Positions 1,341-27,453 of a DNA stretch of 27,968 nucleotides are shown here, one piece after another. Under the pieces are notes generated by a model that worked only from the letters and a program-made list of their open reading frames with translations, did no database searches and was not told where the DNA came from. A program made the position numbers and the translations under genes. Within the stretch, counting starts at the first letter, position 1. Each line of letters opens with the position of its first letter. The stretch is from Candidatus Micrarchaeota archaeon (GTDB lineage Archaea; B1Sed10-29; JAJRYS01): contig CAZXTN010000002.1 in assembly GCA_964643685.1 (NCBI GenBank), positions 1 to 27,968 on the forward strand, written 5' to 3'.

Positions 1341-1517
1341 ATGACTGAAATGTTAGTTGTACAAAGCAAAATTAAAGAAGAATTGAAAAAGCAGGGTGTT
1401 AATGTTGCAGGTGACTTTGCAGAAGCTTTAAGCAAGCATGTTGCTCATCATTTAAAAGAAGCAGCTGCAAGAGCAAAAGCAAACGGCAGAAAAACAGTAA
1501 GAGGATACGACATTTAA
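1341..1517 (+). CDS. Small histone-fold protein, truncated-alpha3 type (face-to-face/Bd0055-like), 58 aa; not in the ORF track
   Basis: Manual translation MTEMLVVQSKIKEELKKQGVNVAGDFAEALSKHVAHHLKEAAARAKANGRKTVRGYDI; L-V-V-x-S-K-I-K start and RAKANGRKTV-x-x-x-D end; GGAGG at 1326-1330; TTTATAA at ~1260. Confidence 0.88.
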   Translation: MTEMLVVQSKIKEELKKQGVNVAGDFAEALSKHVAHHLKEAAARAKANGRKTVRGYDI

Positions 1518-1621
1518 AAACCAAGCTTTGACTTTTTTTAAAAGAAAGAGGACTTTATGTCCTCTGTCAATCCAATCGGTTTACAAGAGCCTTTGCTCGC
1601 GTAAACTTCAGACGGCCCTTG

Positions 1622-1656
1622 GGTAGGAAAACAGTAGGAAGCTACGACATTTAAAA
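1622..1656 (+). repeat. Degenerate direct copy of the histone gene 3' end (1485-1519)
   Basis: ggtaggaaaacagtaggaagctacgacatttaaaa vs ggcagaaaaacagtaagaggatacgacatttaaaa, 30/35 identical. Confidence 0.85.
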
Positions 1657-1758
1657 CACTATTTCTAAAAACCAATTTCAAATTTTAAAAGACGGCTTTA
1701 CGCCTTCTAATAATTTAATTTATTTTTGCAATTGGCTTTGTTTTTTTGAAAAAAATTA

Positions 1759-1830
1759 AAAAGCCTCAGGCCGGGTTTGAACCGAACCGCGGGGGGACAC
1801 ATTCCCCCCTCAGTTCCAGGGTCCTCCTGA
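1759..1830 (-). repeat. Duplicated 3' part of tRNA-Thr carrying a GC-rich hairpin insertion
   Basis: 1759-1784 is identical (26 nt) to 1861-1886; hairpin at 1784-1816; CAGGAGGAC resembles tRNA CAGGAGGTC. Confidence 0.85.
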
Positions 1831-1863
1831 TCCCCCTTTGTTAACTTGCTCATTTTTAATAAA

Positions 1864-1969
1864 AGCCTCAGGCCGGGTTTGAACCGGCGACCTCCTGTTT
1901 ACGAGACAGGCGCACTGCCACTTCACCTACCTTGAATTTTTTTTCAACAATAGACTGTGCTACTGAGGC
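1864..1969 (-). tRNA. tRNA-Thr(CGT) with a 34-nt D-loop intron at 15/16 (1921-1954)
   Basis: GCCTCAG/CTGAGGC acceptor, GCAC/GTGC D-stem, CCTGT-CT-CGT-AA-ACAGG, GCCGG-TTCAAAC-CCGGC, U73; removing the intron gives a 72-nt cloverleaf; relaxed BHB. Confidence 0.93.
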
Positions 1970-2015
1970 TTTTTCAATTCAATTTATATACACTGCAATA
2001 TTTAAAAATAAATCA

Positions 2016-2933
2016 ATGGTAATTCAAGTTATTTTTTTGTTCATAATAGGGCTCTTGTTTCTTTTAAAAGGAGCTGAGAAGTTAATTGATTCTTCAATAA
2101 AGATAGCAAGGCATTTTGGCATAAGCGAGTTAGTTATTGGCTTGACTTTAATTAGTTTTGGAACTTCTTTACCTGAATTTGCAATCGGAACAATTTCAGC
2201 TTTGCAAGGAGAGCCTGTAATTTCAATTGCTAATGTAATTGGAAGCAACATTTATAACTTACTGGTTTTAACTGCTTTGATTGGTTTTGTCACTACTTAT
2301 CATTTCAAGACAATTAACATTCTACAAAGGGATATTGTCTGGTTGTTGTTAACTGCAATTTGGCTTACTGCTGTTGCTTTTAATGGAACAATTTCAGTTG
2401 GTGTTGGCGTGCTGTTTATCAGCTCTTATTTAATTTATATTTATTACTTATACGACACTGGGGAGAAAGTCAAAACAAGAAAAAGAGATGGTGTTACTTG
2501 GAAAACTTACTTAGCTCTTGCAGTGAGCATTATCTTAATTTATTTAGGCGCAGAGTTAACAGTAACAAATGCAATTGAACTTGCTAAACTGCTTCATATA
2601 AGTGAGTGGGCAATATCAGCTGGTTTAATAGGAGCTGGAACAGGATTGCCTGAAACAGCAACAGCAGTTGTTGCTTTGAGAAAAAAGAAGCTGAAAATAG
2701 GAGTAGGTAATTTAATAGGAAGCAACATATTCAACATATTAATTGTTGCAGGAGTAACCAGCTTAATAACTCCAATGCAAGTTGATTTTGCAAGCCATTT
2801 TTACAGCTTCTTTTTCTTAATGATTTCATCTGTATTAATTGCATTAATTGCAATAAGAGGAAGTATTAGGAAAAAAACAGCCATGGTTTCAATAACTTTA
2901 TACTTGATTTACTTATGGCTGTTATTCAAATAA
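2016..2933 (+). CDS. Na+/Ca2+ (cation:Ca2+) exchanger, YrbG/CaCA family
   Basis: Two alpha-repeats, GTSLPE…GSNIYN and GTGLPE…GSNIFN, ~10 TM; start moved to ATG 2016 because the longer ORF overlaps tRNA-Thr. Confidence 0.92.
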   Translation: MVIQVIFLFIIGLLFLLKGAEKLIDSSIKIARHFGISELVIGLTLISFGTSLPEFAIGTISALQGEPVISIANVIGSNIYNLLVLTALIGFVTTYHFKTINILQRDIVWLLLTAIWLTAVAFNGTISVGVGVLFISSYLIYIYYLYDTGEKVKTRKRDGVTWKTYLALAVSIILIYLGAELTVTNAIELAKLLHISEWAISAGLIGAGTGLPETATAVVALRKKKLKIGVGNLIGSNIFNILIVAGVTSLITPMQVDFASHFYSFFFLMISSVLIALIAIRGSIRKKTAMVSITLYLIYLWLLFK

Positions 2934-2942
2934 GGTAATGAA

Positions 2943-3302
2943 ATGAGAGTTAAAGTTTTGTCAATCAGGCAGCCTTATGTTGAGTGGATTGTAAGCGGTA
3001 AAAAGAAGATTGAACTTAGGACTTGGAACACTAACTTCAGGGGAGAGTTTTTCATCCACGCAAGCGGAAAACATGACAAGCTTCCAACTGGCGTAATAAT
3101 TGGAAAAGCAGAATTAGTTGACGTTAAAAAATACGAAAATGAAGAGGAGTTCTTGAAAGACAAGAAAAAGCATTTGTCTAATAAATGGCTTTCGCCTGGT
3201 TCAAAACGCCCCTCGCAATACGGCTTTGTTTTAAAAAACGCGCAGAAAATAAAGCCGATTAAGGTAAAGGGAAAACTTGGCTTCTGGAATTACGAATTAT
3301 AA
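2943..3302 (+). CDS. ASCH domain protein
   Basis: LSIRQPY…I-x-SGKK-x-IELR-x-W…RG-x-x-x-IHAS, G-x-IIG, C-terminal KGKLGFW. Confidence 0.9.
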   Translation: MRVKVLSIRQPYVEWIVSGKKKIELRTWNTNFRGEFFIHASGKHDKLPTGVIIGKAELVDVKKYENEEEFLKDKKKHLSNKWLSPGSKRPSQYGFVLKNAQKIKPIKVKGKLGFWNYEL

Positions 3303-3325
3303 AATTATTTTTAAAAAGAAGTAAG

Positions 3326-3539
3326 CGCTGGCGGCAGGATTTTCATGAAGAGTTGCGCTAACCCGTTAAAAGGCGATTAAGCGAAGCGCACATCGCCTGC
3401 AGGGATAGAAGGGGCGCAGCCCCCTCTTTTTGAACCTGCGAGTCCAATGGACAGCGGTTTTCGAGACCGCCGCATTAACCATTGCAGCCGAAGCCCTAAA
3501 CAGTTGATTTGTTTGGGCTGGGGACTCTGCCACGCCAGC
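3326..3539 (-). tRNA. tRNA-Ser(CGA) with two non-canonical introns: 15/16 (3482-3524, 43 nt) and 59/60 (3340-3428, 89 nt)
   Basis: GCTGGCG/CGCCAGC acceptor, G73, GCGGT-CT-CGA-AA-ACCGC, long variable arm GTCC-ATT-GGAC; central helices GCAG/CTGC and TTCA/TGAA with AA^T 3' bulges; spliced length 82 nt. Confidence 0.92.
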
Positions 3540-3661
3540 ATTTCACAATCAATTGAAGCAGTTTGTGAATAATAATGTATTTATAGATGCGTATTCATAA
3601 AAATTAATGCCAATAATTCTATTTTAAGTTAATAAAAGTTGAAAAGTAGGTGAATTCCAAT

Positions 3662-4846
3662 ATGAAAAGCTTGATTAAAAACGCGATAAGTGAAAGCAAA
3701 CATGGCTTCACAGGAACAGGTAAAAATCTGATTATTGCAGATGACGATGCTCATAAAACAGTCAGGAAAAAAACTGTTGAAATAAAGCAAAGCAGTATCG
3801 GAGGAATGACTGACGAGGAATTAAAAGCTGCTTTGGAACAATCAATGGCAAAAGTAAGAGTAGTTGGAGCAGGAGGATCAGGAAACAACACAATGAAAAG
3901 AATGAAAGAAGTTGGAATTCACGGAGCAGAATTAATTGCAATTAACACTGACGTTCAACACTTACTGATAACACCAGCTGACAAAAAAGTTTTGATAGGA
4001 AAGCAAATAACAAACGGATTAGGAGCAGGAAGCAATCCAGAAGTAGGTGAAGCAGCTGCCAAAGAAAGCTTGAAAGACTTGTCAGCAGTTCTCACAGACA
4101 GCGACTTGGTTTTCGTAACATGCGGTATGGGTGGTGGAACAGGAACAGGCTCAGCTCCAATAGTTGCGCAAGTTGCAAGAGACATCGGCGCTTTAAGCGT
4201 TGGAATAGTCACGCTGCCATTCTCAGTTGAAGGAAAAAGAAGAATGCAAAACGCATTAACAGGACTAAGAAAATTAAAAAAAGAATGCGATACAGTAATA
4301 GTAATACCAAATGACAAGCTGCTTGAAATCGTACCTGAACTGCCTTTAAACGCTGCTTTCAAAGTAGCTGACGAAGTGCTTACAAACGCAGTGAAAGGAA
4401 TCACTGAATTAATCACAAAGCCAGGTTTAGTGAACCTTGACTTTGCTGATGTAAAAACAATTTTAAGCGAAGGTGGCTCTGCAATGATTGGACTTGGCGA
4501 GTCAAGCAATACAAGTTCAAGCGAGTCAAGGGCAATGGAAGCAGTAGAAGAAGCATTAAACTCTCCACTATTAGACGTTGACATAAGCGAAGCAAACAAA
4601 GCATTAATTAATGTTGTCGGCGGAAGCGACATGACCCTAAGAGAAGCTGAAATAATTTGTGAAGCAGTTGCAGCTAAAATCAGCGACAATGCCCACATTA
4701 TTTGGGGAGCAATGATCGATGACTCTCTTCCAAAAAACAGCATCAATGCAATGGTGCTCGTTGCAGGTGGAAGAATCCCTTACCTTGACATGGACAAAGG
4801 TGAAATGAAATCAGCTGCAGACGAGCTTGAAATAGACTACATTTAA
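3662..4846 (+). CDS. ftsZ: Cell division protein FtsZ
   Basis: GAGGSGNN, AINTD, GMGGGTGTG tubulin signature, NLDFADV; AGGTGA before ATG 3662; archaeal ftsZ-secE-spt5 order. Confidence 0.97.
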   Translation: MKSLIKNAISESKHGFTGTGKNLIIADDDAHKTVRKKTVEIKQSSIGGMTDEELKAALEQSMAKVRVVGAGGSGNNTMKRMKEVGIHGAELIAINTDVQHLLITPADKKVLIGKQITNGLGAGSNPEVGEAAAKESLKDLSAVLTDSDLVFVTCGMGGGTGTGSAPIVAQVARDIGALSVGIVTLPFSVEGKRRMQNALTGLRKLKKECDTVIVIPNDKLLEIVPELPLNAAFKVADEVLTNAVKGITELITKPGLVNLDFADVKTILSEGGSAMIGLGESSNTSSSESRAMEAVEEALNSPLLDVDISEANKALINVVGGSDMTLREAEIICEAVAAKISDNAHIIWGAMIDDSLPKNSINAMVLVAGGRIPYLDMDKGEMKSAADELEIDYI

Positions 4847-4856
4847 ACCTGTTTTA

Positions 4857-4941
4857 AAACCAAAAGGCATTGAAACATATGCCTTTTTATATTGGTTTAT
4901 TGACAAATAATTCAATTAATGCTTAATTTTAAAAGCATTAA
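4857..4941 (+). terminator. Hairpins after ftsZ (possible terminator or processing signal)
   Basis: aaggcat/atgcctt followed by a T-run, enclosed by aaaccaa/ttggttt; second inverted repeat ttaatgctt/aagcattaa. Confidence 0.4.
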
Positions 4942-5024
4942 CAAAAAAGTATTCTTTGAAATGAAAATCAATCGCGACTGCGTCGCTCAAACTTTTCATT
5001 TTACCTGTGAGGGAATGTGAAAAA

Positions 5025-5198: not shown

Positions 5199-5227
5199 AA
5201 AACAAGGAATTAAAGAGGTTTTAAAAA

Positions 5228-7138: not shown

Positions 7139-7148
7139 AAAAAAGTGA

Positions 7149-12455: not shown

Positions 12456-13112
12456 ATGGCTCGTTTTGACAGAATCAAGTTAGTTGAAAAAAATTACAAG
12501 AAATTGAAGGGAAAAAAGGTTGGCATAGTCGGCTGCGGTTCTCTTGGCTCCAGAACAGCTGAGCTTTTAGCCAGGTGGGGCATTGATTTTATCTTGATTG
12601 ACTTTGACAAAATTGAAAAAAGCAACTTGGATTCTCAAATTTACTTCGAAAAAGACGTGGGCAAATTCAAGGCAATTGCTTTAAAAAACAAGTTGAAGCA
12701 AATTAATTCAAAAGCAAAACTAGAAGTGCTGAAGAAAGAACTAACTGAAGATAATGCAGAAAAGCTTTTAAGTAAATGCGATTTGGTTGTTGACGGAACT
12801 GACAACTTGAAAGCAAGGTTTGCAATTAACAAAGCATGCAAAAAACTGAAAATACCTTGGGTTTTTGGAAGCGCTGAGAAAAGTGTTGGCATGGCTTCTT
12901 GTTTTGGAAAAAAATACGAGTTTGACAAGTTAATTAAGAAGTCAGTTACTAAGAAGAAGTTTGGGGTTTCTCCGCAGGCAGCTGGCATTGTGGCTGGTTT
13001 TGAAGCAGAGTTTGCTATCAAACTTTTGCTTGGAAAAAGGTTTGAGAAGAAGCTTGTTTTAATTGATTTGAACAACTTTTCAGCTGAAGGATTAATTAAT
13101 CCTTTTTTCTGA
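12456..13112 (+). CDS. ThiF/MoeB/UbaA E1-like adenylyltransferase
   Basis: VGCGSLGS, IDFD-x-IE-x-SNL-x-x-Q, DLVVDGTDN-x-x-AR-x-x-IN; Zn-binding CxxC motifs absent. Confidence 0.87.
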   Translation: MARFDRIKLVEKNYKKLKGKKVGIVGCGSLGSRTAELLARWGIDFILIDFDKIEKSNLDSQIYFEKDVGKFKAIALKNKLKQINSKAKLEVLKKELTEDNAEKLLSKCDLVVDGTDNLKARFAINKACKKLKIPWVFGSAEKSVGMASCFGKKYEFDKLIKKSVTKKKFGVSPQAAGIVAGFEAEFAIKLLLGKRFEKKLVLIDLNNFSAEGLINPFF

Positions 13113-13152
13113 AATGTTTTTATAAGATGCTGATTAAATAATTAAATACATT

Positions 13153-13386
13153 GGAGGGTTGGCAGAGTCCCTTTCCGCTTGAATTATTTCAAGCGGCGGG
13201 GGCTGTAATGGCTATGCATCCGGCTGCAGTTGCCAAGCAGTTTGAATAAAATTGTTTTGGAACAGTAACCGGAAGATCCGAGTTCGAACAGCCGTATCCG
13301 GCTGGCGGGCTGGTTGGCCGTAAAGGCCAACTGTCCTCTTTCAGCGGATATGTCAGCTAGGCGGCGAGAAAGTCTCGGGCCCTCCT
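13153..13386 (+). tRNA. tRNA-Cys(GCA) with three introns: 15/16 (13168-13208, 41 nt), 37/38 (13230-13267, 38 nt), 59/60 (13289-13372, 84 nt)
   Basis: GGAGGGT/GCCCTCC acceptor, U73, TCCGG-CT-GCA-G^A-CCGGA, CCGAG-TTCGAA^T-CTCGG; each insert folds into a BHB/BHL motif; spliced length 71 nt; directly upstream of cysS. Confidence 0.9.
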
Positions 13387-13419
13387 CTTAAAAAAATAGA
13401 AGAAGAAGGTTTTTTTGAA

Positions 13420-14802
13420 ATGATTAAATTCTTTAATACAATGAGCAGGAAAGTGGAAGAGTTCAAGCCTATTCATGAAGAATGGGTTGGGATATACTCC
13501 TGTGGCCCTACTGTTTATTATTACGCGCATATTGGAAATTTAAGAGCTTATGTTTTTGCAGATGTGCTGAAAAGAACATTAGAGTATAACAATTTTAAAG
13601 TCAAGCACGTGATGAACATCACTGACGTGGGACACTTGACAAGTGACAACGACGTGGGTGAAGACAAGCTTGAAAAAGCTAAGGAGAAGGAAAGGAAAAC
13701 AGCTTGGGAAATTGCTCGCTTTTATGAAAAAGCTTTTTTTGAAGATACGGCAAAACTGAACATTATACGCCCAGATATTACTCCAAGAGCAACAGAAGAG
13801 ATAGAGGATCAAATAAAATTAATTCAAAAAATTGAACAAAATGGTTTTGCTTACATTATTGAAGATGGAGTTTATTTTGATACTTCAAAGCTTCCTGATT
13901 ATGGAAAATTAGCTCGTTTGGACATTGAAAATTTAAAGGCAGGTGCAAGAGTAGAAATGGTGGAAGGTAAGAAGAATCCCACTGATTTTGCCTTATGGAA
14001 GTTTTCACCTAAAGACAAGAAAAGAGACATGGAATGGGAGAGTCCTTGGGGTATTGGTTTTCCAGGGTGGCATATTGAATGTTCTGAAATGAGCACTAAA
14101 TACTTAGGGATACCTTTTGATATACACACAGGAGGAGTGGATCATATTCCAGTGCACCATACAAATGAAATTGCACAAGCTGAAGCAGCATACGGCAAAG
14201 AACCTGTAAATTACTGGATGCATAATGAATTTTTAATAATGAAAGATGAGAAGATGTCCAAAAGCAAAGGAGATATTATAACTTTACAAAAATTAATTGA
14301 TAAGGGTTATTCTCCAATGGATTATAGATACCTATTGTTAACTGCTCATTATCGCAAACAATTAACTTTTACATGGGAAGCATTAGATAACGCCAAAAAA
14401 ACCATGAAAAAACTTGAAAGAAAAGTGCTTGAAATCAAAACAGAAGAAAAAACACAACCAAATAGCAAGTATAAACAGAAATTTTTAGAAGCAATAAACA
14501 GCGACTTGAACACTTCAGAAGCATTGGCAGTAATGTGGCAAATGTTAAAAGACGAAGAGATAAGCAATATTGAAAAATATTCCACCTTGCTTGATTTTGA
14601 TAAAGTTCTTGGATTAAGACTAAGTGAAATCAAAGAAGAAGAATCAAGCATACCAGAAGAAGTGAAAAAGTTAGTTGAAGAAAGGGAGCAAGCGAGGAAG
14701 GAGAAGAATTGGAGCAAGGCAGATGAGCTAAGGGATAAGATTAAAGAACTTGGTTTTAGGGTAGTTGACACTAAAGAAGGAGCAAAAATTGAAAAAATTT
14801 AA
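13420..14802 (+). CDS. cysS: Cysteine--tRNA ligase
   Basis: CGPTVY, HIGN, NITDV, DFALWK, PGWHIECS, HHTNE, KMSKS. Confidence 0.98.
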   Translation: MIKFFNTMSRKVEEFKPIHEEWVGIYSCGPTVYYYAHIGNLRAYVFADVLKRTLEYNNFKVKHVMNITDVGHLTSDNDVGEDKLEKAKEKERKTAWEIARFYEKAFFEDTAKLNIIRPDITPRATEEIEDQIKLIQKIEQNGFAYIIEDGVYFDTSKLPDYGKLARLDIENLKAGARVEMVEGKKNPTDFALWKFSPKDKKRDMEWESPWGIGFPGWHIECSEMSTKYLGIPFDIHTGGVDHIPVHHTNEIAQAEAAYGKEPVNYWMHNEFLIMKDEKMSKSKGDIITLQKLIDKGYSPMDYRYLLLTAHYRKQLTFTWEALDNAKKTMKKLERKVLEIKTEEKTQPNSKYKQKFLEAINSDLNTSEALAVMWQMLKDEEISNIEKYSTLLDFDKVLGLRLSEIKEEESSIPEEVKKLVEEREQARKEKNWSKADELRDKIKELGFRVVDTKEGAKIEKI

Positions 14803-15038
14803 ATTTCAGTAGCTTCATCTTCTTTTTCTTCTTGTTTTTCTTTCAGTTTGTCGTTTAATGCTTTTACTAGTTCATCGGCGTCTATGCCGTGGGCTTGCGC
14901 TCCTTGTTCAATTGTTTCAAAATTAGAGAAAGCGCAGCCAAGGCAATGAATGCCGTATAAGATGAAAACGTGGTAAGTTTCAGGGTGTTTGTTTATCACT
15001 TGCATTATATTATCTGTTTTTTTAATTTCTTGACTCAT
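14799..15038 (-). CDS. DUF1858-like redox-disulfide domain protein
   Basis: HPET-x-x-VF-x-x-YGIHCLGC-x-x-x-x-FETIEQGA-x-AHGID. Confidence 0.85.
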   Translation of the reverse strand: MSQEIKKTDNIMQVINKHPETYHVFILYGIHCLGCAFSNFETIEQGAQAHGIDADELVKALNDKLKEKQEEKEDEATEI

Positions 15039-15095
15039 TAATGAATTATTTGATTAAAATAAGTTTTTAATGCTTTGCATGCATAATAAAAAGTA

Positions 15096-15629
15096 ATGGG
15101 AATAAAAAGCATGATTGAGCATAAAATTAAAGGAAAAATAGCTAGAAAAGCTGGAGTGGGAGAGGTATATGAAAAAATGCATACTGCAAAAGTATGGAAA
15201 AAAAGAATAGGAGGAGCAGTTAATAAATTAAAACCTAAACTAAGTTTTACAGAGCAAGTAAAAAAAGCAAGAGAATTAAATGCAAGAGGCAAAGCTAAAG
15301 TAAAAGAAAAAGTAACTAAAAAAACAGCAGAAAAAGAAGTTAAAGAAGAAGAGGGTTTAGTTAGTAAATTAAAAATTCACCCTAAACTACCTTATGCTTT
15401 TGTGCAGAAAGTTAGAAAAGGATTGAATGAAATTTACTTTCAGATAATGGGTTCTAAACTCTCAGCAGAACAAAAAAAAGCAGAAACTGAAATCCTTGAC
15501 ATTACAGCAAGCGCTATTTTAGAGCATATGATGCCTTTAGAAGCTTACAGAGAAGAGTTAATACAAAGAGGATACCCTCCTGAGATAGTGGAAAGATGGA
15601 CTAAAATTTTCCTTGAACTTGTCAAATAA
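15096..15629 (+). CDS. Hypothetical protein with basic N-terminal half
   Basis: 177-aa ORF, no motif recognised. Confidence 0.7.
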   Translation: MGIKSMIEHKIKGKIARKAGVGEVYEKMHTAKVWKKRIGGAVNKLKPKLSFTEQVKKARELNARGKAKVKEKVTKKTAEKEVKEEEGLVSKLKIHPKLPYAFVQKVRKGLNEIYFQIMGSKLSAEQKKAETEILDITASAILEHMMPLEAYREELIQRGYPPEIVERWTKIFLELVK

Positions 15630-15711
15630 CTGAAAAGAAGGATTAAGAAAGATTAAATTTTTTTAAAAACAAACAAGTTAAAAAAAGAAGCATGCAGAAG
15701 CAAATAATTAC

Positions 15712-15861
15712 TTATTTGCTTTTCTTTTCTCCTTTTTTAGGCCTTAATTGATCTGAACCGCATTTTCTGCATTTAGTTGCATTCCATGCATTTGTTGCCT
15801 TGCATTTTCTGCATATTTTTTTCTTCAATCTTCTTTCTTTTGTCTCTGGAAAAATAACCAT
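15712..15861 (-). CDS. rpl40e: 50S ribosomal protein eL40
   Basis: KKICRKC-x-A-x-N-x-x-x-A-x-KCRKCG-x-x-x-LRPK; GGAGG upstream of ATG 15861. Confidence 0.95.
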   Translation of the reverse strand: MVIFPETKERRLKKKICRKCKATNAWNATKCRKCGSDQLRPKKGEKKSK

Positions 15862-16084
15862 TTCAAAAAACCTCCGAGTAAACGTAAGATGAAATTTTCT
15901 CAACTGCTTTTAATTTTTCTGAAACTAAATGTTTAAAAAGCTTTGAGTGTATAATTTTTATGCTTACTTATATTTAAATACATTATCTTTTAAGTGCTGT
16001 ATATTTTTTTAAGATAACAGCAAGAAACGCTTAAAAAGAACAAAATAAAAAAAAGCATTATTGAAAAGACTAACATTAACCAGC

Positions 16085-16201
16085 GCTCCGATCTTCTAGT
16101 TCGGTCAAGGATGCAGGCCTTTCAAAGTGATTTGCTTTTGGAAACAGAAGCAAGCGAACTGAAGTTAGCCTGCGACCCGGGTTCAAATCCCGGTCGGAGC
16201 A
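16085..16201 (+). tRNA. tRNA-Glu(TTC) with a 42-nt canonical 37/38 intron (16125-16166)
   Basis: GCTCCGA/TCGGAGC acceptor, CAGGC-CT-TTC-A^A-GCCTG, CCGGG-TTCAAAT-CCCGG; strict BHB with CTTT/GAAG central helix. Confidence 0.94.
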
Positions 16202-16250
16202 TGGATTGTAAAAAAACCTGAGCACTTCAGCAAAGCTGAATGTGGTCACA

Positions 16251-16312
16251 TTTGATGCAAACTTTGTTAAAGTTTGCTGAAGCTCCCGGTCGGAGCATGT
16301 ATTGTAAAAAAA
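16251..16312 (+). repeat. 30-nt hairpin element followed by a duplicate of the tRNA-Glu 3' end
   Basis: 16284-16312 matches 16188-16216 at 28/29; element 16251-16280 is shared with 16671-16700. Confidence 0.9.
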
Positions 16313-16354
16313 GTTTAAATGAGGTAGAATAGAATTATAGGATGTGAATGTTGA

Positions 16355-16465
16355 ATGAAAAGCAAGCCAAGGAAATGGAAGAAGAAGAATAAGATGCGTT
16401 GGAAGTGGGTTAAGAAAAGAATGCGCAGGGAAAAGAGAAAGAGGAGAAAGAGAGCAGGCAAGTAA
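16355..16465 (+). CDS. rpl41e: Ribosomal protein eL41/eS32, long archaeal form, 36 aa; not in the ORF track
   Basis: Manual translation MKSKPRKWKKKNKMRWKWVKKRMRREKRKRRKRAGK contains the MRWKW-x-KKR-x-RR-x-KRKRR core. Confidence 0.88.
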   Translation: MKSKPRKWKKKNKMRWKWVKKRMRREKRKRRKRAGK

Positions 16466-16522
16466 AGCCTTGTTCTTTTTAATTTGCTTCCTTTTTTTCA
16501 TGTTTTTATTAAAAAGGTATTT

Positions 16523-16638
<116 letters not shown>

Positions 16639-16650
16639 TTTGGAAAAAAA

Positions 16651-16718
16651 TGGGCTTTATGCCCAGGGGTTTTGATGCAACTTTTGTTAAAAGTTGCTGA
16701 GGATCCCTTCCCCTGCAT
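16651..16718 (+). repeat. Two hairpins followed by a duplicate of the tRNA-Leu 3' end
   Basis: 16703-16718 is identical to 16624-16639 (atcccttcccctgcat); hairpin tgggc-tttat-gccca plus the shared 30-nt element at 16671-16700. Confidence 0.88.
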
Positions 16719-16740
16719 ACTAATTTTTTTAAAAATTTAC

Positions 16741-16878
16741 TTAAAAGATTAAGTTGCCTATTAGTGGTTTTGCCAGTTCATTGCTTGTTCCTATTGCGTT
16801 GTGGAAGCTGAGTGCTAGGAGTATTGCAAGGGTAATTACTGCAATTATTACGAAAATTAAAAGCCACTTGTTAATCAT
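16741..16878 (-). CDS. Small single-TM or signal-peptide protein, 45 aa; not in the ORF track
   Basis: Manual translation MINKWLLIFVIIAVITLAILLALSFHNAIGTSNELAKPLIGNLIF; co-oriented downstream of dedA. Confidence 0.55.
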   Translation of the reverse strand: MINKWLLIFVIIAVITLAILLALSFHNAIGTSNELAKPLIGNLIF

Positions 16879-23326: not shown

Positions 23327-23830
23327 ATGAAAATTGTTATTACTGGCGCGCCTAACAGCGGAAAAACAACACTAGTTAAAAAACTTGAAGAACAAGGGCA
23401 TCTTGTTTTGCATGAAGTAGCAAGAGAAGTGATTAAAGAAGGGTTTAATTTTAAAAACAGCTTGGATTTTCAATATGAAATATTTAAAAGAACGATTGAA
23501 AGAAACAAAAAAATAATAAGTAAAAAAATTCACTTCCTTGATGTTGATTTGATTGAAGGCATTGCTTACTTGAAATTAAAAGGAATAGAAGCGCCTGAAT
23601 GGCTGCATAAAGCAGCGTCAGAAGCAAGTTATGACAAAGTGTTTTTTCTTGAATCCAATCCTATATGGGTTGATGATGGAGTGCGTTTTCAGACAAAAGA
23701 AGAAGCAGAAAAAATAGGAAAAATGATAAAAGAAGCTTATGAAAATTTCGGATTCAGGCCAATAATTATACCTTGGATAAGTTTAAATGAAAGAATTGAA
23801 TTAATAAAAAAAGAAGCTGGTTTAAAATGA
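23327..23830 (+). CDS. P-loop ATPase/kinase, NadR/AAA_28 type
   Basis: IVITGAPNSGKTT, E-x-AR-x-x-I, YD-x-VF-x-L, DDG-x-R, ER-x-x-x-I. Confidence 0.85.
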   Translation: MKIVITGAPNSGKTTLVKKLEEQGHLVLHEVAREVIKEGFNFKNSLDFQYEIFKRTIERNKKIISKKIHFLDVDLIEGIAYLKLKGIEAPEWLHKAASEASYDKVFFLESNPIWVDDGVRFQTKEEAEKIGKMIKEAYENFGFRPIIIPWISLNERIELIKKEAGLK

Positions 23831-24471
23831 CTGAAGTTGATTTTGAAAAAATTAAAAAACAAGCAAAGCCTTTTTTTGAAGAAGTGCATGGTTCTCATGG
23901 CTGGTTTCATGTCGAAAGAGTATTCAACTTAACAAAACACATTTGCGAAAAAGAAAAAGCTGACTTTTCAATAGCAGGAACAGCTGCTTTATTGCATGAC
24001 CTTGCAAGAAAACAAGAAGATGAAGGCTTGGTTGAAGACCATGCAGTTGCAGGCGCTGAAAAATCAAAAGAAATTCTTAAAAGCCTAGGCTACGGAAAAG
24101 AATTTGCTGAAAAAGTAAGTTACTGCATTGAAGTGCACAGGTTCAGTAAAGGAATAAAACCAGAAACACTTGAAGCAAAGATATTGCAAGATGCTGACAG
24201 GCTGGATGTGCTGGGAGCAATTGGAGTGGCAAGAGTTTTTGACTACGGCGGAAGAAAAAACAGGCCACTATATGCAGATGAAAAAATTGAAAAAAACCAT
24301 GAATATAAGGGACAGTCGCAGTCTGACTTGATTCATTTTTATGAAAAAATTTTAAAAATAAATCCAGAAAGTTTCAATACTGAAACAGCGAAAGAAATAG
24401 CAAAAGAAAGGTTTGAGTTCACTGAAAGATTTGTTGAAAAATTCCTGAAAGAATGGAGAGGAGAGGAATGA
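23827..24471 (+). CDS. HD-domain phosphohydrolase
   Basis: H-x-x-x-H-x-x-RV, AALLHD, HRFS, LQDADRLD-x-LGAIG-x-AR. Confidence 0.93.
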   Translation: MTEVDFEKIKKQAKPFFEEVHGSHGWFHVERVFNLTKHICEKEKADFSIAGTAALLHDLARKQEDEGLVEDHAVAGAEKSKEILKSLGYGKEFAEKVSYCIEVHRFSKGIKPETLEAKILQDADRLDVLGAIGVARVFDYGGRKNRPLYADEKIEKNHEYKGQSQSDLIHFYEKILKINPESFNTETAKEIAKERFEFTERFVEKFLKEWRGEE

Positions 24472-24506
24472 AAAAGAAATTGCTTTCTTTCCTCTAATTG
24501 GTTTTT

Positions 24507-24728
24507 TCAAAGAGTTTCTATTTTGAATAAAGCATTGCATCCTTTAAGAGTAGCATGCACTTGATTAGCTAAATTCAAAGCATCTTCTGTATGAGGCTGA
24601 GAACCCCAGTTATAAACATAGTCATATTCTCCTTTCTGCGGCTGAAAACCCATGCTCATGAGCCTTTCAGTAATTTCAGTTGGGCTTGCTCCGTCGCTGT
24701 TAAACCATATTGTCAAGTAACTTTTCAT
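24507..24728 (-). CDS. Small hypothetical protein, probably conserved in archaea
   Basis: MKSYLTIWFNSDGASP…GF…G-x-YD-x-VY-x-W; strong GGAGG upstream. Confidence 0.75.
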   Translation of the reverse strand: MKSYLTIWFNSDGASPTEITERLMSMGFQPQKGEYDYVYNWGSQPHTEDALNLANQVHATLKGCNALFKIETL

Positions 24729-24848
24729 AAAAAACACCCCTCCTCCTTATTTTTCTTTAATAATTTCTAAACAGGGCTAGTATTTATTAATTTCTTACCT
24801 TTTACTGTGAATAAAATTTTTTTAAACAAAGGAAAACTAAATATTTTC

Positions 24849-25307
24849 ATGGAAGATTGTGTTTTTTGTAAAATTGTAAACAGAGAAATTGATTCTGCAA
24901 AGATATGGGAAGATGAAAAATTCATTGCAATACTTGACATTATGCCAAATACAAAAGGAATGACTCTTGTTTTAACAAAAGAACATTATGACTCTTATGC
25001 GTTTGATATGCCTAAAAAGGAGTATCTTGAATTCATGTCTGCTTCAAAAAAAGTTGCAAAAATACTTGAAAAAGGACTTGGGGTAAAAAGAGTTGCAATG
25101 GTAATGGAAGGAATGGGAATAAACCACGCTCATATAAAACTTTACCCCCTTCACGGTTTAGAAGAAAAATTTGAAGAAACATGGGCTGAAAAAAGAGTCT
25201 TTTTTGAAAAATATGAAGGGTATATAACAACACAATCAGGAGAACAAGTTGAATTAAGAAAATTAAAAGATATTGCAAAAGAAATAAAAGAAAAAGCAGA
25301 GGTTTAA
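24849..25307 (+). CDS. HIT family nucleotide hydrolase
   Basis: DCVFCKIV start and variant triad HAHIK (third His replaced by Lys). Confidence 0.88.
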   Translation: MEDCVFCKIVNREIDSAKIWEDEKFIAILDIMPNTKGMTLVLTKEHYDSYAFDMPKKEYLEFMSASKKVAKILEKGLGVKRVAMVMEGMGINHAHIKLYPLHGLEEKFEETWAEKRVFFEKYEGYITTQSGEQVELRKLKDIAKEIKEKAEV

Positions 25308-25341
25308 GAATTTAAAAGCTTAGAAATAGAGGAAAAAGATA

Positions 25342-25881
25342 ATGAAAGAAGCTGTTTATGAGCCAAGCGAAGACACTTTTTTAATGGAAAAAGCCCTGCC
25401 TAAAAACTTAACTGGAAAAAGAGTTTTAGAAGTGGGTTGCGGCAGAGGGTTTTTGTCAGTTGAATGCGCTTTGCGCGGAGGGAAAGTAACTGCTGTTGAC
25501 ATTAATGAAAACGCCCTAAATGCAGCGGAGAGGCTGGCTGTTTTAAAAGGAGTTGAAGTTGACTTGATTGAAAGCAACTTGTTTGAAAAAGTTGAAGGGA
25601 AATTTGACTTGATTTTGTTCAATCCTCCTTATGTCGATTCCTGCTTTGAAGGGCTTGATGGCGAGCATGCTTGGGCTGGCGGAAAAAAAGGAAGAGAAGT
25701 AATTGACAAGTTTTTAAAAGAATTTAAGAATTATTTGAATAAAGAAGGAGTTTGCTTGCTTTTGATTTCAAGCATTAATGAAATGAAACAAGAGCTTGAA
25801 GAAAAAGGATGGATTGAAATTGAAAAAACGAGGCTAATGGATGGAGAGGAATTGTTTGTAATGAGATTCGTTCATAATTAA
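25342..25881 (+). CDS. HemK2/MTQ2-type N5-glutamine methyltransferase
   Basis: VYEPSEDTFL, VLEVGCGRG, FDLILFNPPY, GG-x-x-G. Confidence 0.9.
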   Translation: MKEAVYEPSEDTFLMEKALPKNLTGKRVLEVGCGRGFLSVECALRGGKVTAVDINENALNAAERLAVLKGVEVDLIESNLFEKVEGKFDLILFNPPYVDSCFEGLDGEHAWAGGKKGREVIDKFLKEFKNYLNKEGVCLLLISSINEMKQELEEKGWIEIEKTRLMDGEELFVMRFVHN

Positions 25882-25883
25882 AG

Positions 25884-26510
25884 TTACAGCCTTTTATAAT
25901 TTCTTTTCGAGGTTCCTAAAATTTTTTCAAAAAAGCCTTTTTTTGCCTTCTCTTCTTCTAAAATTCTTGCTTTTATTTCCCTTGCTTTTCTTTCCTTGTA
26001 CTTGTTTATTAATTTTTTGAACACTGGGCGTGATCCCATGTATTCTTGTTCTTCTTTTTTTAAGCGTAATTTTTTCAGCATTTTTACTGTAAACAAGTCT
26101 GCTTCTAATTCTTCAAGCAGTGTTGGTCCTTCAAAACCAGCTCTTGATAAGTGTTTTAATTCATGAAGTAATGTTACTATGCCTTGCTTTTTAACAGCTA
26201 TTTTTCCATTATGTATTGCAAAAAACTGCTCTTCAGGAAGAGTAATTACATGCCTTACTACTTCTCCTGTTTGAGGGTAATAAAATGTTGTTGTCAATCC
26301 CTTTGTTTCCATTTTATAATCCCCGAATTCCTTTGAATTTATTGCTTTTTGCTTTGGAAGTATTTTAAAAGAAACCTGTTTGCTGTTTATTTTTTCCCTG
26401 AGTAATTGTGCAGTGTGCGGTTCTACTTGTTCAATTTCATTAAGAAGAAACTTCAGCGTCTCATTTATTATCTTCTGCTTTTTGGATGGCATTACTTTGT
26501 AATTCATCAA
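25884..26510 (-). CDS. Hypothetical protein with a zincin-like HExxH motif
   Basis: TLLHELKH followed by EELEAD. Confidence 0.65.
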   Translation of the reverse strand: MMNYKVMPSKKQKIINETLKFLLNEIEQVEPHTAQLLREKINSKQVSFKILPKQKAINSKEFGDYKMETKGLTTTFYYPQTGEVVRHVITLPEEQFFAIHNGKIAVKKQGIVTLLHELKHLSRAGFEGPTLLEELEADLFTVKMLKKLRLKKEEQEYMGSRPVFKKLINKYKERKAREIKARILEEEKAKKGFFEKILGTSKRNYKRL

Positions 26511-26543
26511 CTTTTATTAAGTGCGTTTTTGTTAATTAATGTT

Positions 26544-27380
26544 ATGCCAATTAATGCAGGCCCTGAATTCATGGAAGCGCAGAAAAAATACGAAGAAGCA
26601 AGAACACTTCCTGACAAAATAAAATACTTAAAAGAAATGCTTAGCACTGCCCCTAGTCACAAAGGAGCTGAGAAACTGAGAAGGCAGTTGACTACTCGTC
26701 TTGCCAAGCTGAAGCAGGAGCTGGAGAAAGAGAAGAAAAGCAGGAAAGGCAGAAAAAGCTTGGCTGTGAAAAAAGTTGGCTTTCAAATTGTAATTATTGG
26801 CTTCACTAACAGCGGCAAAAGCAGTTTGCTGAAGGCTTTGACTAATGCCGAGCCTAGGATTGCTAGCTATGCTTTCACCACCAAAGAGCCTGAAGTGGGC
26901 ATGCTTGATTTTAACGGCGCTCAGTTGCAGTTGGTTGAAGTGCCTGCTTTGATGAAAGGAGCTGCGAAGGAACAGGGGGAGTTGATGAGCATAATCATCA
27001 ACAGTGACGGCATTATTTTGCTTTATAGAAATGAGGAGGAGAGAAGGGCTTTGATGAAGGAGTTGTTTGAGTTTGGAGTTGAGAAGCCTGTTATGTTTGT
27101 TGAAAGTTTCAGTGTTCCTAAGAAGGAGGCGTTGTTTAATTTTTTTGACTTGATTCGAGTGTATACTAAGGAGCCGGGTGAGGAGCCTGTTATGGAAAAA
27201 CCTTTAGTGGTTAAGAGGGGAACGAATGTGCTTGAAGCTGGGCGTAGGATTCATAAGGATTTTGTCAGGAAGTTTAAGTTTGCTCGTGTTTGGGGCAGCG
27301 CTCGTTTTCCTGGGCAGAGGGTTGACAAGGATTTTGTTTTAAAAGACGGAGACGTGATTGAGTTTCACTTACGCAAGTAA
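26544..27380 (+). CDS. DRG/OBG-family GTPase with C-terminal TGS domain (short form)
   Basis: MPIN start, P-x-HKG-x-E, GFTNSGKS, YAFTT, IRVYTK-x-PG, FARVWG…GQ-x-V…L-x-DGDV-x-E; likely start ATG 26544. Confidence 0.9.
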   Translation: MPINAGPEFMEAQKKYEEARTLPDKIKYLKEMLSTAPSHKGAEKLRRQLTTRLAKLKQELEKEKKSRKGRKSLAVKKVGFQIVIIGFTNSGKSSLLKALTNAEPRIASYAFTTKEPEVGMLDFNGAQLQLVEVPALMKGAAKEQGELMSIIINSDGIILLYRNEEERRALMKELFEFGVEKPVMFVESFSVPKKEALFNFFDLIRVYTKEPGEEPVMEKPLVVKRGTNVLEAGRRIHKDFVRKFKFARVWGSARFPGQRVDKDFVLKDGDVIEFHLRK

Positions 27381-27453
27381 GTGGAACGTTTGAACGAGCA
27401 AAGCGAGTGATTAAGTTTCATTTACGCAAGTAAATGAAACGTTTGAATGAACA
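27354..27453 (+). repeat. Tandem 47-nt repeat (period 53) containing an 11-bp GCAA-loop hairpin that overlaps the GTPase stop codon
   Basis: 27354-27400 vs 27407-27453, 41/47 identical; stems at 27362-27387 and 27415-27440. Confidence 0.9.

What the first reader, a model, noticed from the sequence alone, without database searches (positions are those of the whole stretch)
1485..27453. Recurrent gene-end duplication with hairpins at five unrelated loci: candidate undescribed micro-element or recombination process
Seen: five genes are followed closely by a copy of their own last 16-47 nt. They are the histone (1485-1519 / 1622-1656), tRNA-Thr (1861-1886 / 1759-1784), tRNA-Glu (16188-16216 / 16284-16312), tRNA-Leu (16624-16639 / 16703-16718) and the TGS-GTPase (27354-27400 / 27407-27453). 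Repeat periods are only 53-137 nt, and hairpins lie between or inside the copies. Known: integrative elements duplicate tRNA 3' ends, but normally around kb-sized cargo with an integrase. Inference: five such sites in 28 kb, hitting both tRNA and protein genes with related hairpins, point to a non-autonomous hairpin element or a retro/repair process that regenerates gene ends. The enzyme is not in this window.
Basis: partly seen in the sequence, partly recalled or inferred. Interest (0 to 1): 0.8.

Follow-up and report, generated by a model that had tools for sequence, protein, structure and literature searches.

The report
Hairpin modules that duplicate gene ends
In this tiny vent archaeon, short conserved hairpin modules sit between many genes (mostly tRNAs) and a second copy of that gene's own end, which may show how odd archaeal tRNA introns and tRNA fragments arise.

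Summary
All five repeats are real, and short-range repeats are about 5-10 times commoner genome-wide than in simulations. Four of the five belong to one phenomenon. A conserved hairpin module lies directly before a second copy of the neighbouring gene's terminal segment.

- **Extent:** 15 of 34 tRNA genes in this 695-kb DPANN (Nanoarchaeota/Woesearchaeota-like) genome carry a downstream copy of their own last 14 nt (0 of 34 upstream; cross-control 19 of 1122). Copies start in the T-loop, where this genome's T-loop introns sit.
- **Other targets:** tRNA 5' exons and the ends and starts of protein genes are duplicated in the same way.
- **Orientation:** the same module end always faces the copy, and the module is flipped when the copy is a 5' segment.
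- **Link to introns:** both main module types also occur as ends of genuine tRNA introns.
- **Enzymes:** no RT, integrase, HUH, DDE, serine recombinase, Cas1 or clear TnpB was found.
- **Exception:** the GTPase repeat is a plain tandem duplication.

Best reading (about 0.45): duplicative, microhomology-guided copying of intron-like modules, leaving spare terminal exons. No RNA data exist. Interest is fairly high.

The parts
1341..1517 (+).
   Evidence: ORF read. Orthologues were found in 12 of 30 relatives. There is no Pfam match.
1485..1519 (+). copy 1: the true end of the 58-aa gene, including the stop codon
   Evidence: repeat D5
1520..1621 (+). spacer/module 'T4', with hairpins at about 1547-1565 and 1579-1606
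   Evidence: Positions 1545-1614 are 95.7% identical over 70 nt to C3:9643-9712. There, another protein-gene end is duplicated 207 nt downstream.
1622..1656 (+). copy 2 of the gene end (86% identity, decaying pseudo-end)
   Evidence: repeat D5. It differs from copy 1 by 2 synonymous and 3 non-synonymous changes (read). No such copy is seen in the 11 relatives examined.
1864..1969 (-). tRNA-Thr (anticodon CGU by reading) with a D-loop intron; its 3' part is copy 1 (1861-1886)
   Evidence: Rfam hit 1870-1922. Acceptor ends were located.
1785..1860 (-). inserted element: an A-rich start, a truncated first hairpin, then the T2 module
   Evidence: Covariance model R1 hit at 1776-1873, 72.4 bits. 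nhmmer hit. Included in the alignment.
1759..1784 (-). copy 2 of the tRNA-Thr 3' part (26 nt, 100% identity)
   Evidence: repeat D9. An independent contig spans both copies.
16085..16201 (+). tRNA-Glu(UUC) with an anticodon-loop intron; copy 1 = 16188-16216
   Evidence: repeat D7
16217..16283 (+). inserted element: first hairpin (16219-16249) plus T1 hairpin module (16250-16280)
   Evidence: 92% identical over 53 nt to C4:866-918, which lies downstream of another tRNA. R2 hit.
16284..16312 (+). copy 2 of the tRNA-Glu 3' exon plus trailer; exact identity begins at tRNA nt 60
   Evidence: repeat D7
16523..16638 (+). tRNA-Leu with an anticodon-loop intron; copy 1 = 16624-16639
   Evidence: repeat D14
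16640..16702 (+). inserted element: GC hairpin (16651-16665) plus T1 hairpin module (16670-16700)
   Evidence: 94% identical over 49 nt to C1:110427-110475. R2 hit.
16703..16718 (+). copy 2 of the tRNA-Leu 3' exon (16 nt, 100% identity); a T-run follows it
   Evidence: repeat D14. An independent contig spans both copies.
26406..27380 (+). GTPase gene with MMR_HSR1 and TGS domains
27354..27453 (+). plain tandem duplication (period 53) of the gene end plus its hairpin. There is no shared module, so it is probably a separate, simpler event.
   Evidence: repeat D2. blastn finds no other copy in the genome. The hairpin arms differ between the two copies by a compensatory pair (read). None of the 5 relatives examined has the duplication.

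Best explanation
A family of short (about 60-150 nt) structured hairpin modules has been copied repeatedly into gene termini of this lineage by a duplicative DNA-level process. I call the modules T1, T2 and T4, and each is usually preceded by a smaller hairpin.

**Architecture (shown).** One defined end of the module is joined to the gene at a point of short sequence resemblance. For tRNAs that point is the T-loop. The gene segment from that point to just past the gene's end is present twice: [gene...end][A-rich start, hairpin, module][copy of end]. The upstream copy keeps the gene intact.

**Mechanism (inferred).** I favour template switching during replication or repair. The nascent strand leaves the gene at the T-loop or a similar site and anneals to the look-alike end of a module elsewhere. 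It copies that module, then returns to the original template a little further back. This would be tandem duplication with a templated insertion and needs no dedicated transposase.

**Consequence for tRNAs (inferred).** The product is a spare 3' (or 5') exon attached to an intron-like junction. A read-through transcript could use that exon through the splicing endonuclease. It would therefore be raw material for T-loop or D-loop introns and for scattered tRNA fragments.

The architecture, orientation rule, distribution and absence of known enzymes are shown. The template switch, the splicing and the path to introns are inferred.
For: 1. **Recurrence.** 15 of 34 tRNAs have a copy of their own last 14 nt (<=2 mismatches) within 400 nt downstream. 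None of the 34 has one upstream, and the cross-control with foreign 3' ends gave 19 of 1122.
2. **Copy boundaries.** For 17 copies, exact identity starts at tRNA nt 51-60, with 12 of 17 at nt 57-60. It ends 0-4 nt past the discriminator in 13 of 17.
3. **Same design at other termini.**
   - tRNA 5' exons: C1:166248, C1:112426, C6:17069, C6:36066.
   - Protein 3' ends: C3:66357, C3:44224, C3:9594, C3:6602, and C6 at about 700.
   - A protein start: C3:63939.
   - Of 113 local repeats, 28 are at tRNA loci, 12 at protein 3' ends and 7 at protein 5' ends.
4. **T2 sites abut copies.** By my reading, 11 of 14 distinct T2 sites in the genome abut a copy of a neighbouring gene segment.
5. **Orientation rule.** The same module end faces the copy. 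The module is reverse-complemented when the copy is a 5' exon, as at the tRNA-Leu of G004, which has three 5' exons.
6. **Resemblance at the junction.** The T2 end resembles a T-arm. The T4 end resembles both of its targets.
7. **Variable duplication length**, about 14 to about 63 nt, and mosaic or nested modules.
8. **Plain tandem duplications without an insert** occur in the same genome: the GTPase, C5:42138 and C2:71252.
9. **No dedicated enzyme found.** RVT_1, Phage_integrase, Y1_Tnp, DDE_Tnp_1, Resolvase and Cas1 gave no hit. The TnpB zinc-ribbon model gave only a sub-threshold hit.
10. **Link to introns.**
   - T2 forms the 3' end of a genuine T-loop intron at C1:166541.
   - T1 starts anticodon-loop introns in G015 and G006.
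   - The bases before the copies resemble the 3' ends of real T-loop introns.
   - EndA is present.
   - With copy 1 forced single-stranded, folding gives a helix, a 3-nt bulge and a 4-bp helix at the module/copy junction.
11. **Negative control genome.** G010, fetched whole (569,033 bases held in 2 contigs), has 46 tRNAs, 5 with predicted introns (4 in the anticodon loop). It has no tRNA-end duplications.
12. **Structure is kept in the modules.** 16 of 24 predicted pairs show a compensatory change among 10 copies.
Against: - No step of the mechanism is observed directly. There are no RNA data and no presence/absence polymorphism.
- The link to introns is thin. Only 1 of 13 genuine T-loop introns in this genome contains T2, and none contains T1.
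- The predicted continuum to introns is not seen. Short repeats at T-loop intron junctions average 2.5 nt, against 1.8 nt when junctions are permuted between tRNAs. Only one intron has a 7-nt partial copy.
- Both duplication boundaries coincide with RNA boundaries (the T-loop splice site and the mature 3' end). A DNA-level process explains this only by invoking selection plus proximity.
- tRNA copies are nearly always identical to copy 1: 13 of 17 have 0 mismatches in 14 nt. At tRNA-Arg the flank beyond the first 33 nt is only about 70% identical. This points to homogenisation or selection, meaning some function, which the neutral model does not predict.
- The genome is 92% complete, so an enzyme could lie in the missing part or in a partner organism or virus.
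- Among relatives' best-scoring tRNAs, only 2 of 30 carry a copy, so the process is patchy.
Confidence: 0.45

Rival explanations
1. The modules are a non-autonomous mobile DNA element. An unidentified enzyme, encoded in the missing 8% of the genome or by a host, partner or virus, mobilises them in trans. It makes staggered cuts of variable distance, so the duplications are true target-site duplications.
For: - Modules at different loci are 92-96% identical.
- One module end is constant.
- 11 of 14 T2 sites are flanked by a duplicated target.
- Module structure is conserved, with compensatory changes.
- Distribution across relatives is patchy: T2 in 4 of 31 genomes and T1 in 7 of 31.
Against: - The elements have no terminal inverted repeats, and their two ends are unlike each other.
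- Duplication length ranges from about 14 to about 63 nt.
- No match was found to six tested enzyme families, and TnpB gave only a sub-threshold hit.
- The left boundary and content of the element vary.
Confidence: 0.2
2. The events start at the RNA level. A splicing intermediate (intron plus 3' exon) or a module RNA is ligated to, or copied onto, the 3' end of a tRNA or mRNA. The chimera is then copied back into DNA.
For: - The duplicated unit matches RNA boundaries. It starts at tRNA nt 57-60 in 12 of 17 copies and ends 0-4 nt after the discriminator in 13 of 17.
- By my reading, the protein-gene copies end at or a few nt after the stop codon.
- The elements start with an A-run.
- EndA is present.
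Against: - No RVT_1 match in the genome.
- The copies carry no encoded CCA.
- Some copies include up to 20 exact nt of trailer, or more if mismatches are allowed.
- Copies of 5' exons include upstream promoter-side sequence, for example C6:36066. An RNA would not carry that sequence.
Confidence: 0.1
3. The arrangement is kept because it is used. Copy 2 might serve as a spare or alternative terminal exon. Alternatively, the structured module plus the gene-derived segment might act as an RNA in its own right (decoy, guide-like or processing signal).
For: - tRNA copies stay identical to their own tRNA. This holds in class-level relatives whose tRNA sequence differs: G018:C17 has 18 nt exact, G025:C37 has 22 nt exact, and G007:C4 has three copies.
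- At tRNA-Arg there is a sharp drop from 100% to about 70% identity past the first 33 nt.
- In several loci the strong T-run follows the last copy, not copy 1 (by eye).
- The modules keep their structure through compensatory changes.
Against: - The same design at the ends and starts of protein genes has no obvious use, and those copies decay (86% and 87% identity in the window).
- All copies of one tRNA are identical, so nothing is diversified.
- No nuclease or partner protein was identified.
- There are no RNA data.
Confidence: 0.15
4. The copies are attL/attR scars of integrase-driven integrative plasmids or viruses that were later deleted down to a stub.
For: Direct repeats of tRNA 3' or 5' parts beside a reconstituted tRNA are the known footprint of archaeal integrative elements. 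Intron gain through an intron-bearing attP has been proposed (PMC3293823; abstract and first part of the Discussion read).
Against: - No Phage_integrase match in the genome.
- The cargo is only 60-150 nt at every one of more than 25 sites.
- Dozens of different targets, including the ends and starts of protein genes, would each need a matching attP.
- The same module lies next to unrelated targets.
Confidence: 0.05
5. The repeats are chance or an assembly artefact.
For: Two of the 113 local repeats flank N-gaps and are scaffolding artefacts. Contigs tend to break at the modules.
Against: - 113 repeats were observed against 10-24 simulated.
- Contigs from an independent sample span both copies at the Thr and Leu loci with 0 differences.
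- Some copies have diverged.
- The same architecture appears in separately assembled relatives.
Confidence: 0.02

Closest known systems
tRNA direct repeats and intron gain from integrative elements (SSV/pNOB8-type; model of Sugahara et al. 2012, PMC3293823)
   Same: A partial copy of a tRNA lies beside a complete tRNA gene, at the 3' or the 5' side. The phenomenon is linked to intron gain and to tRNA fragments.
   Different: - No integrase was found here.
- The intervening DNA is 60-150 nt, not kilobases.
- The same small hairpin modules recur at many different tRNAs.
- Ends and starts of protein genes are hit too.
Non-canonical BHB introns and 'intron transposition' between tRNA genes in Thermoproteales (Fujishima 2010, as cited in section 2.5 of 10.64898/2026.10.13.758758, which I read; the original paper was not read)
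   Same: Related intervening sequences occur in different tRNA types of one genome, at non-canonical sites (T-loop, D-loop), and a splicing endonuclease is present.
   Different: - Here most modules lie outside an intact tRNA and are followed by a duplicated terminal exon.
- Only 1 of 13 genuine T-loop introns in this genome carries T2.
- Exon duplication is not part of the transposition model in the parts I read.
Split and tri-split tRNA genes (Nanoarchaeum, Caldivirga, Desulfurococcales; PMC3218864, abstract read)
   Same: Separate tRNA pieces are flanked by structured, GC-rich leader or trailer sequence. A 5' piece followed by the reverse complement of the module that precedes a 3' piece is formally the split-tRNA layout.
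   Different: The pieces here are redundant copies next to a complete gene. They cover only the first ~20 nt or the last ~15 nt of the tRNA and could not make a tRNA on their own.
Tandem duplication with templated insertion by template switching (FoSTeS/MMBIR, polymerase-theta-type repair). Recalled from general knowledge; no paper read here.
   Same: Variable-length duplication, an inserted stretch copied from elsewhere, microhomology at junctions, and no dedicated transposase.
   Different: Those events are sporadic and use arbitrary donors. Here the same few modules are reused dozens of times, always with the same end at the junction.
REP/BIME-RAYT and IS200/IS605 hairpin elements; MITEs
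   Same: Short intergenic hairpin repeats at gene ends, multiplied within a compact genome.
   Different: No Y1 transposase was found and only a sub-threshold TnpB hit. The elements have no terminal inverted repeats. The long, variable target duplications are not a feature of those families (recalled).

Membership tests
Integrase-mediated integrative element (att duplication at a tRNA) | tyrosine (SSV/pNOB8-type) integrase gene in or near the element | tested here: not met
   PF00589 gave no match in the 92%-complete genome, while it matched all 14 control genomes.
Integrase-mediated integrative element (att duplication at a tRNA) | direct repeat of a tRNA part flanking the inserted DNA | tested here: met
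Integrase-mediated integrative element (att duplication at a tRNA) | kilobase-sized cargo, or recognisable remnants of it | tested here: not met
   Spacers are 53-210 nt and consist of hairpin modules only.
Archaeal BHB (splicing-endonuclease) intron | interrupts the mature RNA sequence, so that removal is required | tested here: not met
   At the window loci the upstream tRNA is already complete. The feature is met only for C1:166541, where T2 ends a real T-loop intron.
Archaeal BHB (splicing-endonuclease) intron | bulge-helix-bulge, or a relaxed form of it, at the boundaries | tested here: inconclusive
   Constrained folding gives a helix, a 3-nt bulge and a 4-bp helix at the 3' junction of Glu. 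The 5' site lies in an open loop. 8 of 17 copies have a GA-purine motif within the 9 nt before the copy.
Archaeal BHB (splicing-endonuclease) intron | splicing endonuclease present | tested here: met
   PF01974 hit at C1:21078-21338, 115.8 bits.
Archaeal BHB (splicing-endonuclease) intron | excised or spliced RNA observed | not testable with these tools
   No RNA run is listed for this organism.
IS200/IS605 or REP-RAYT hairpin elements | HUH/Y1 transposase (TnpA/RAYT) in the genome | tested here: not met
   PF01797 gave no match. The TnpB zinc-ribbon model gave only 23.6 bits, below its cut-off, in a 94-aa frame.
MITE of a DDE transposon | terminal inverted repeats and a fixed-length target-site duplication | tested here: not met
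   The element ends are unlike each other. Duplications range from about 14 to about 63 nt. There is no DDE_Tnp_1 match; other DDE families were not searched.
Diversity-generating retroelement (TR/VR pair at a gene's 3' end) | reverse transcriptase, and adenine-specific differences between the repeats | tested here: not met
   No RVT_1 match. The differences between the two 'histone' copies are C>T, A>G, A>G, G>A and A>C, which are not adenine-specific.
Box C/D-type K-turn RNA (considered for module T1) | tandem G.A pairs from conserved C-box and D-box motifs | tested here: not met
   The two flanking motifs are replaced by other bases in 3 of 9 (5' side) and 3-4 of 9 (3' side) aligned copies, while the stem is kept. 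Rfam gives no match.
Split tRNA gene | the pieces together encode a whole tRNA and no intact gene exists | tested here: not met
   Intact genes are present. The copies cover only the terminal exons.

The most novel reading that the evidence does not exclude
These loci are fresh footprints of the still unknown route by which archaeal non-canonical tRNA introns, tRNA fragments and perhaps split tRNAs are born.

On this reading, structured modules whose end pairs with or mimics the T-loop are copied into gene termini by the cell's own replication, repair or RNA-processing machinery. No transposase is involved, and RNA may serve as the template, because the duplicated unit matches RNA boundaries. 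Each event creates a spare terminal exon. Read-through transcripts use that exon via the splicing endonuclease. Loss of the first copy then fixes an obligatory intron.
Probability: 0.25. Interest if true: 0.9.

Novelty: new variant of a known kind. Interest (0 to 1): 0.72.

Why it matters
How archaeal tRNA introns arrive is an open question. [quoted passage not shown] It concluded that 'how they arrive remains open' (10.64898/2026.10.13.758758; abstract and section 2.5 read).

This genome offers dozens of recent, sequence-resolved events in only 0.7 Mb. Intron-like modules sit next to duplicated terminal exons, with a clear orientation rule, junction resemblance and no known mobile-element enzyme. 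Related genomes that lack the feature are available as controls. That makes the question testable with RNA-seq, EndA assays and denser sampling of this family.

There is also a practical point. These structures hide tRNA genes from standard finders and break assemblies at tRNA loci.

Tried and rejected
- **K-turn / box C/D reading of T1.** The flanking motifs are not conserved and Rfam gives no hit.
- **Known RNA families for any module.** E-value scans of 1450-1950, 13100-16750 and 3300-3570 gave only tRNA or noise.
- **Hammerhead-like reading of T2.** Rejected by eye because the core does not fit.
- **Short target duplications flanking genuine T-loop introns.** Observed mean 2.5 nt against 1.8 nt for permuted junctions (156 pairs), so this is not supported. 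Registration was poor for 3 of the 13 introns.
- **DGR.** Rejected; see the membership test.
- **Guide-RNA/TnpB-like reading (scaffold plus gene-derived segment).** No nuclease was found.
- **RNA evidence.** No RNA holder is listed.
- **Empty alleles.**
  - No joint across any of the four loci laid in four runs. The GTPase locus was outside the stretch laid.
  - A metagenome-contig scan with the neighbouring 333-aa ORF found only 3 distant loci at 28-35% identity.
- **Orthologous loci.**
  - None of the 11 'histone' orthologues examined has the copy. A twelfth, L021, was printed on the wrong strand and was not evaluated.
  - None of the 5 GTPase orthologues examined has it. Synteny differs, so these are not true empty sites.
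- **Loop motif of the first hairpin.** 64 hits (<=1 mismatch) in G000 against 14 in G010, but my stem test was crude, so I draw nothing from it.
- **Periods of protein 3'-end duplications.** By my count, 5 of 7 are multiples of 3. That is marginal (about 0.05) and unexplained.
- **Not available or not used.** Structure, complex and atlas tools were not used because no protein is at issue.
- **Literature searches for a prior description** listed nothing on duplicated terminal exons beside hairpin modules in DPANN. Subscription journals are not covered.

Full report
**1. Observation**

The window is contig C2:1-27968 of a 695,104-base, 12-contig genome. The genome is about 36% G+C and 91.75% complete. 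Names on relatives' records place it among Nanoarchaeota/Woesearchaeota-type DPANN archaea. The DNA occurs in hydrothermal-vent metagenomes.

All five repeat pairs are present at the stated coordinates:

| Gene | Length | Identity | Spacing |
|---|---|---|---|
| 58-aa gene end | 35 nt | 86% | 137 |
| tRNA-Thr | 26 nt | 100% | 102 |
| tRNA-Glu | 29 nt | 97% | 96 |
| tRNA-Leu | 16 nt | 100% | 79 |
| GTPase end | 47 nt | 87% | 53 |

- The three tRNAs are Rfam hits. Default ARAGORN found none because all three carry introns.
- The GTPase has MMR_HSR1 and TGS domains.
- Genome-wide there are 113 exact direct repeats of >=13 nt lying 30-400 nt apart. Five Markov-3 simulations gave 10-24, and the same genome at a distance of about 2.2 kb gave 29. 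Two of the 113 flank N-gaps (artefacts) and three are contig-redundancy duplicates.
- Contigs from an independent sample span both Thr copies and both Leu copies without a difference.

**2. What lies between the copies**

- **Glu and Leu spacers (module T1).** They share a conserved hairpin at 16250-16280 and 16670-16700, preceded by a smaller hairpin. The Glu spacer is 92% identical over 53 nt to the spacer after another tRNA (C4:866-918). The Leu spacer is 94% identical over 49 nt to C1:110427-110475.
- **Thr spacer (module T2).** nhmmer and a covariance model built from ten copies place T2 at 14 distinct sites in the genome. Among the ten copies, 16 of 24 predicted base pairs show a compensatory change.
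- **58-aa-gene spacer (module T4).** It is 95.7% identical over 70 nt to C3:9643-9712. There, the end of an unrelated 191-aa ORF is duplicated 207 nt downstream.
- **GTPase repeat.** It has no counterpart elsewhere in the genome. It is a plain 53-nt tandem duplication of the gene end with its own hairpin.

**3. The phenomenon across the genome**

- 15 of 34 tRNA genes carry at least one copy of their own last 14 nt (<=2 mismatches) within 400 nt downstream. None of the 34 has one upstream. Foreign 3' ends turn up in 19 of 1122 cross-comparisons. Two tRNAs carry two extra copies.
- For the 17 copies, exact identity begins at tRNA nt 51-60, with 12 of 17 at nt 57-60 and a mode of 59. It stops 0-4 nt past the discriminator in 13 of 17, with a maximum of 20. 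The duplicated unit is essentially the 3' exon as a T-loop intron would define it.
- 5' exons are duplicated upstream of at least four tRNAs (C1:166248, C1:112426, C6:17069, C6:36066), in one case with 15 nt of upstream flank.
- Protein genes show the same design:
  - 3' ends at C3:66357, C3:44224, C3:9594, C3:6602 and C6 at about 700.
  - A start codon region at C3:63939.
- A coordinate-based classification of the 113 repeats gives 50 inside one ORF, 28 at tRNA loci, 12 at protein 3' ends, 7 at protein 5' ends and 16 other.
- By my reading, 11 of the 14 T2 sites abut a copy of a neighbouring gene segment. One is the 3' end of a genuine T-loop intron, and two abut nothing recognisable.

**4. 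Orientation rule and junctions**

- The same end of the module always faces the duplicated segment. When the segment is a 3' piece, the module is forward.
- When it is a 5' piece, the module is reverse-complemented. The clearest case is the tRNA-Leu of relative G004, which has three tandem 5' exons, two of them followed by reversed T2.
- The facing end of T2 looks like a T-arm, and in the consensus fold it is part of a long stem.
- The end of T4 resembles the start of both of its targets.
- The other side of the element is variable. It usually starts with an A-run.
- Duplication length runs from about 14 nt to about 63 nt (G004:C33).

**5. Link to introns**

- This genome is full of non-canonical introns. 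I located 13 T-loop introns.
- At least five of them share a conserved ~110-nt sequence, T3. One of these is the overlooked tRNA in the window at 13153-13395, whose T3 match is weak but whose intron is 90% identical over 59 nt to C6's.
- T2 ends one genuine T-loop intron, at C1:166541.
- In relatives G015 and G006, T1 sits reversed at the start of anticodon-loop introns.
- The bases just before the copies resemble the 3' ends of genuine T-loop introns.
- When copy 1 is made unavailable, folding pairs the T-stem and T-loop with the module/copy-2 junction as a helix, a 3-nt bulge and a 4-bp helix.
- EndA is present.

The link should not be overstated:
- Only 1 of 13 genuine T-loop introns carries T2, and none carries T1.
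- The expected intermediates, introns flanked by partial exon copies, are not enriched. The mean repeat is 2.5 nt, against 1.8 nt for permuted junctions. One intron has 7 nt.

**6. Relatives**

| Feature | Where found |
|---|---|
| T2 module | 4 of 31 genomes of the class (G000 15 hits, G004 8, G002 1, G005 1) |
| T1 module | 7 of 31 genomes of the class |
| Hairpin-T1-copy layout after tRNAs | G018, G025 and G007; each copy matches its own tRNA |
| Downstream copy among best-scoring tRNAs of G001, G004, G018 | 2 of 30 |
| Copy of the 58-aa gene end | none of 11 orthologues examined |
| Duplication of the GTPase end | none of 5 orthologues examined |

G010 was fetched whole as a control. It has 46 tRNAs, of which 5 have predicted introns (4 in the anticodon loop), and no tRNA-end duplication.

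**7. Enzymes**

- No match was found to RVT_1, Phage_integrase, Y1_Tnp, DDE_Tnp_1, Resolvase or Cas1.
- The TnpB zinc-ribbon model gave one sub-threshold hit, in a 94-aa frame.
- The genome is 92% complete, so absence is not proven.

**8. Interpretation**

*Shown:* the architecture, its recurrence, the orientation rule, junction resemblance, variable duplication length, mosaic modules, co-occurrence with plain tandem duplications, and the absence of known mobile-element enzymes.

*Inferred:* a template-switch type of duplicative copying. The nascent strand leaves the gene at the T-loop or a similar site, copies a look-alike module, and returns slightly further back. In a compact genome, only events that leave a complete gene upstream survive. 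For tRNAs the product is a spare exon with an intron-like junction.

Points against, or left open:
- The duplicated unit matches RNA boundaries.
- tRNA copies stay identical while flanks and protein-gene copies decay. This hints at use or homogenisation.
- No RNA data or polymorphism are available.

**9. Comparison with what is known**

- **Closest published model.** Integration of a mobile element leaves a tRNA fragment and an added intron (PMC3293823; abstract and Discussion part 1 read).
- **Intron transposition in Thermoproteales.** Known to me only as cited in 10.64898/2026.10.13.758758.
- **What differs here.** The size is miniature, there is no recombinase, the same modules are reused, the terminal exon is systematically duplicated, and protein genes are included.
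- **Literature searches.** Four full-text searches listed no description of this arrangement.
- **Supplements.** I did not open the supplements of any paper. Those of the Asgard census, a bioRxiv preprint whose supplements are closed, might bear on whether similar duplications were seen.

**10. Verdict**

This is a real, recurrent and unusual feature. The process is tied to intron-like modules rather than to any known mobile-element enzyme. The mechanism is unresolved.

Noticed in passing
window 13153-13395 (+): A fourth tRNA gene, heavily interrupted, that both ARAGORN and Rfam missed. It has matching acceptor ends, and its T-loop intron carries the conserved ~110-nt T3 sequence shared by at least four other tRNAs (C1:32386, C1:112265, C6:17237, C9:5932; also C6:36297, more weakly).
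   Followed up: partly
window 3322-3548 (+): A strongly structured intergenic RNA candidate: MFE -91.4 kcal/mol, z = -4.64, with a closing helix between its two ends. It contains the first-hairpin motif and a partial T2 (R1 hit at 3367-3436). It matches no Rfam family, and its identity is unknown.
   Followed up: partly
window 16344-16466 (+): A very small Lys/Arg-rich ORF lies between tRNA-Glu and tRNA-Leu. It is conserved next to these tRNAs in relatives (DNA hits to query positions 296-403). It looks like ribosomal protein eL41; that name is recalled and was not tested.
   Followed up: no
G000 C1:199881-200090 and C4:40522-40731: In both places, 55-nt exact repeats flank a run of 100 N. These are unmerged scaffold overlaps, not biology. 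Contig C8 also duplicates part of C1 (for example C8:9845 = C1:85634).
   Followed up: partly
G000 C1:112921-113100, C1:113930-114040, C6:36620-36720, C3:54780-54883: A recurring three-hairpin trailer follows several tRNAs or their last exon copy. It is a further module family and was not analysed.
   Followed up: no
G001 contigs C27, C14, C26, C20, C30, C31: Many contigs of this relative end 50-170 nt from a tRNA gene. That is what repeated modules beside tRNAs would do to an assembly, so counts of tRNA-end copies in draft genomes are lower bounds.
   Followed up: no
G000 C3:6602-6749: A 46-52-nt duplication lies inside the cysteine-rich C-terminal coding region of an ORF, with a module in between and a period of 102. 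Read straight through, the frame ends at a stop inside the module. By my count, five of seven protein 3'-end duplications have periods divisible by 3, which is unexplained.
   Followed up: partly
window 27364-27389 and 27417-27442: The hairpin that spans the GTPase stop codon differs between the two tandem copies by a compensatory pair of changes. The hairpin itself therefore seems to be under selection, perhaps as a terminator or for stability.
   Followed up: no
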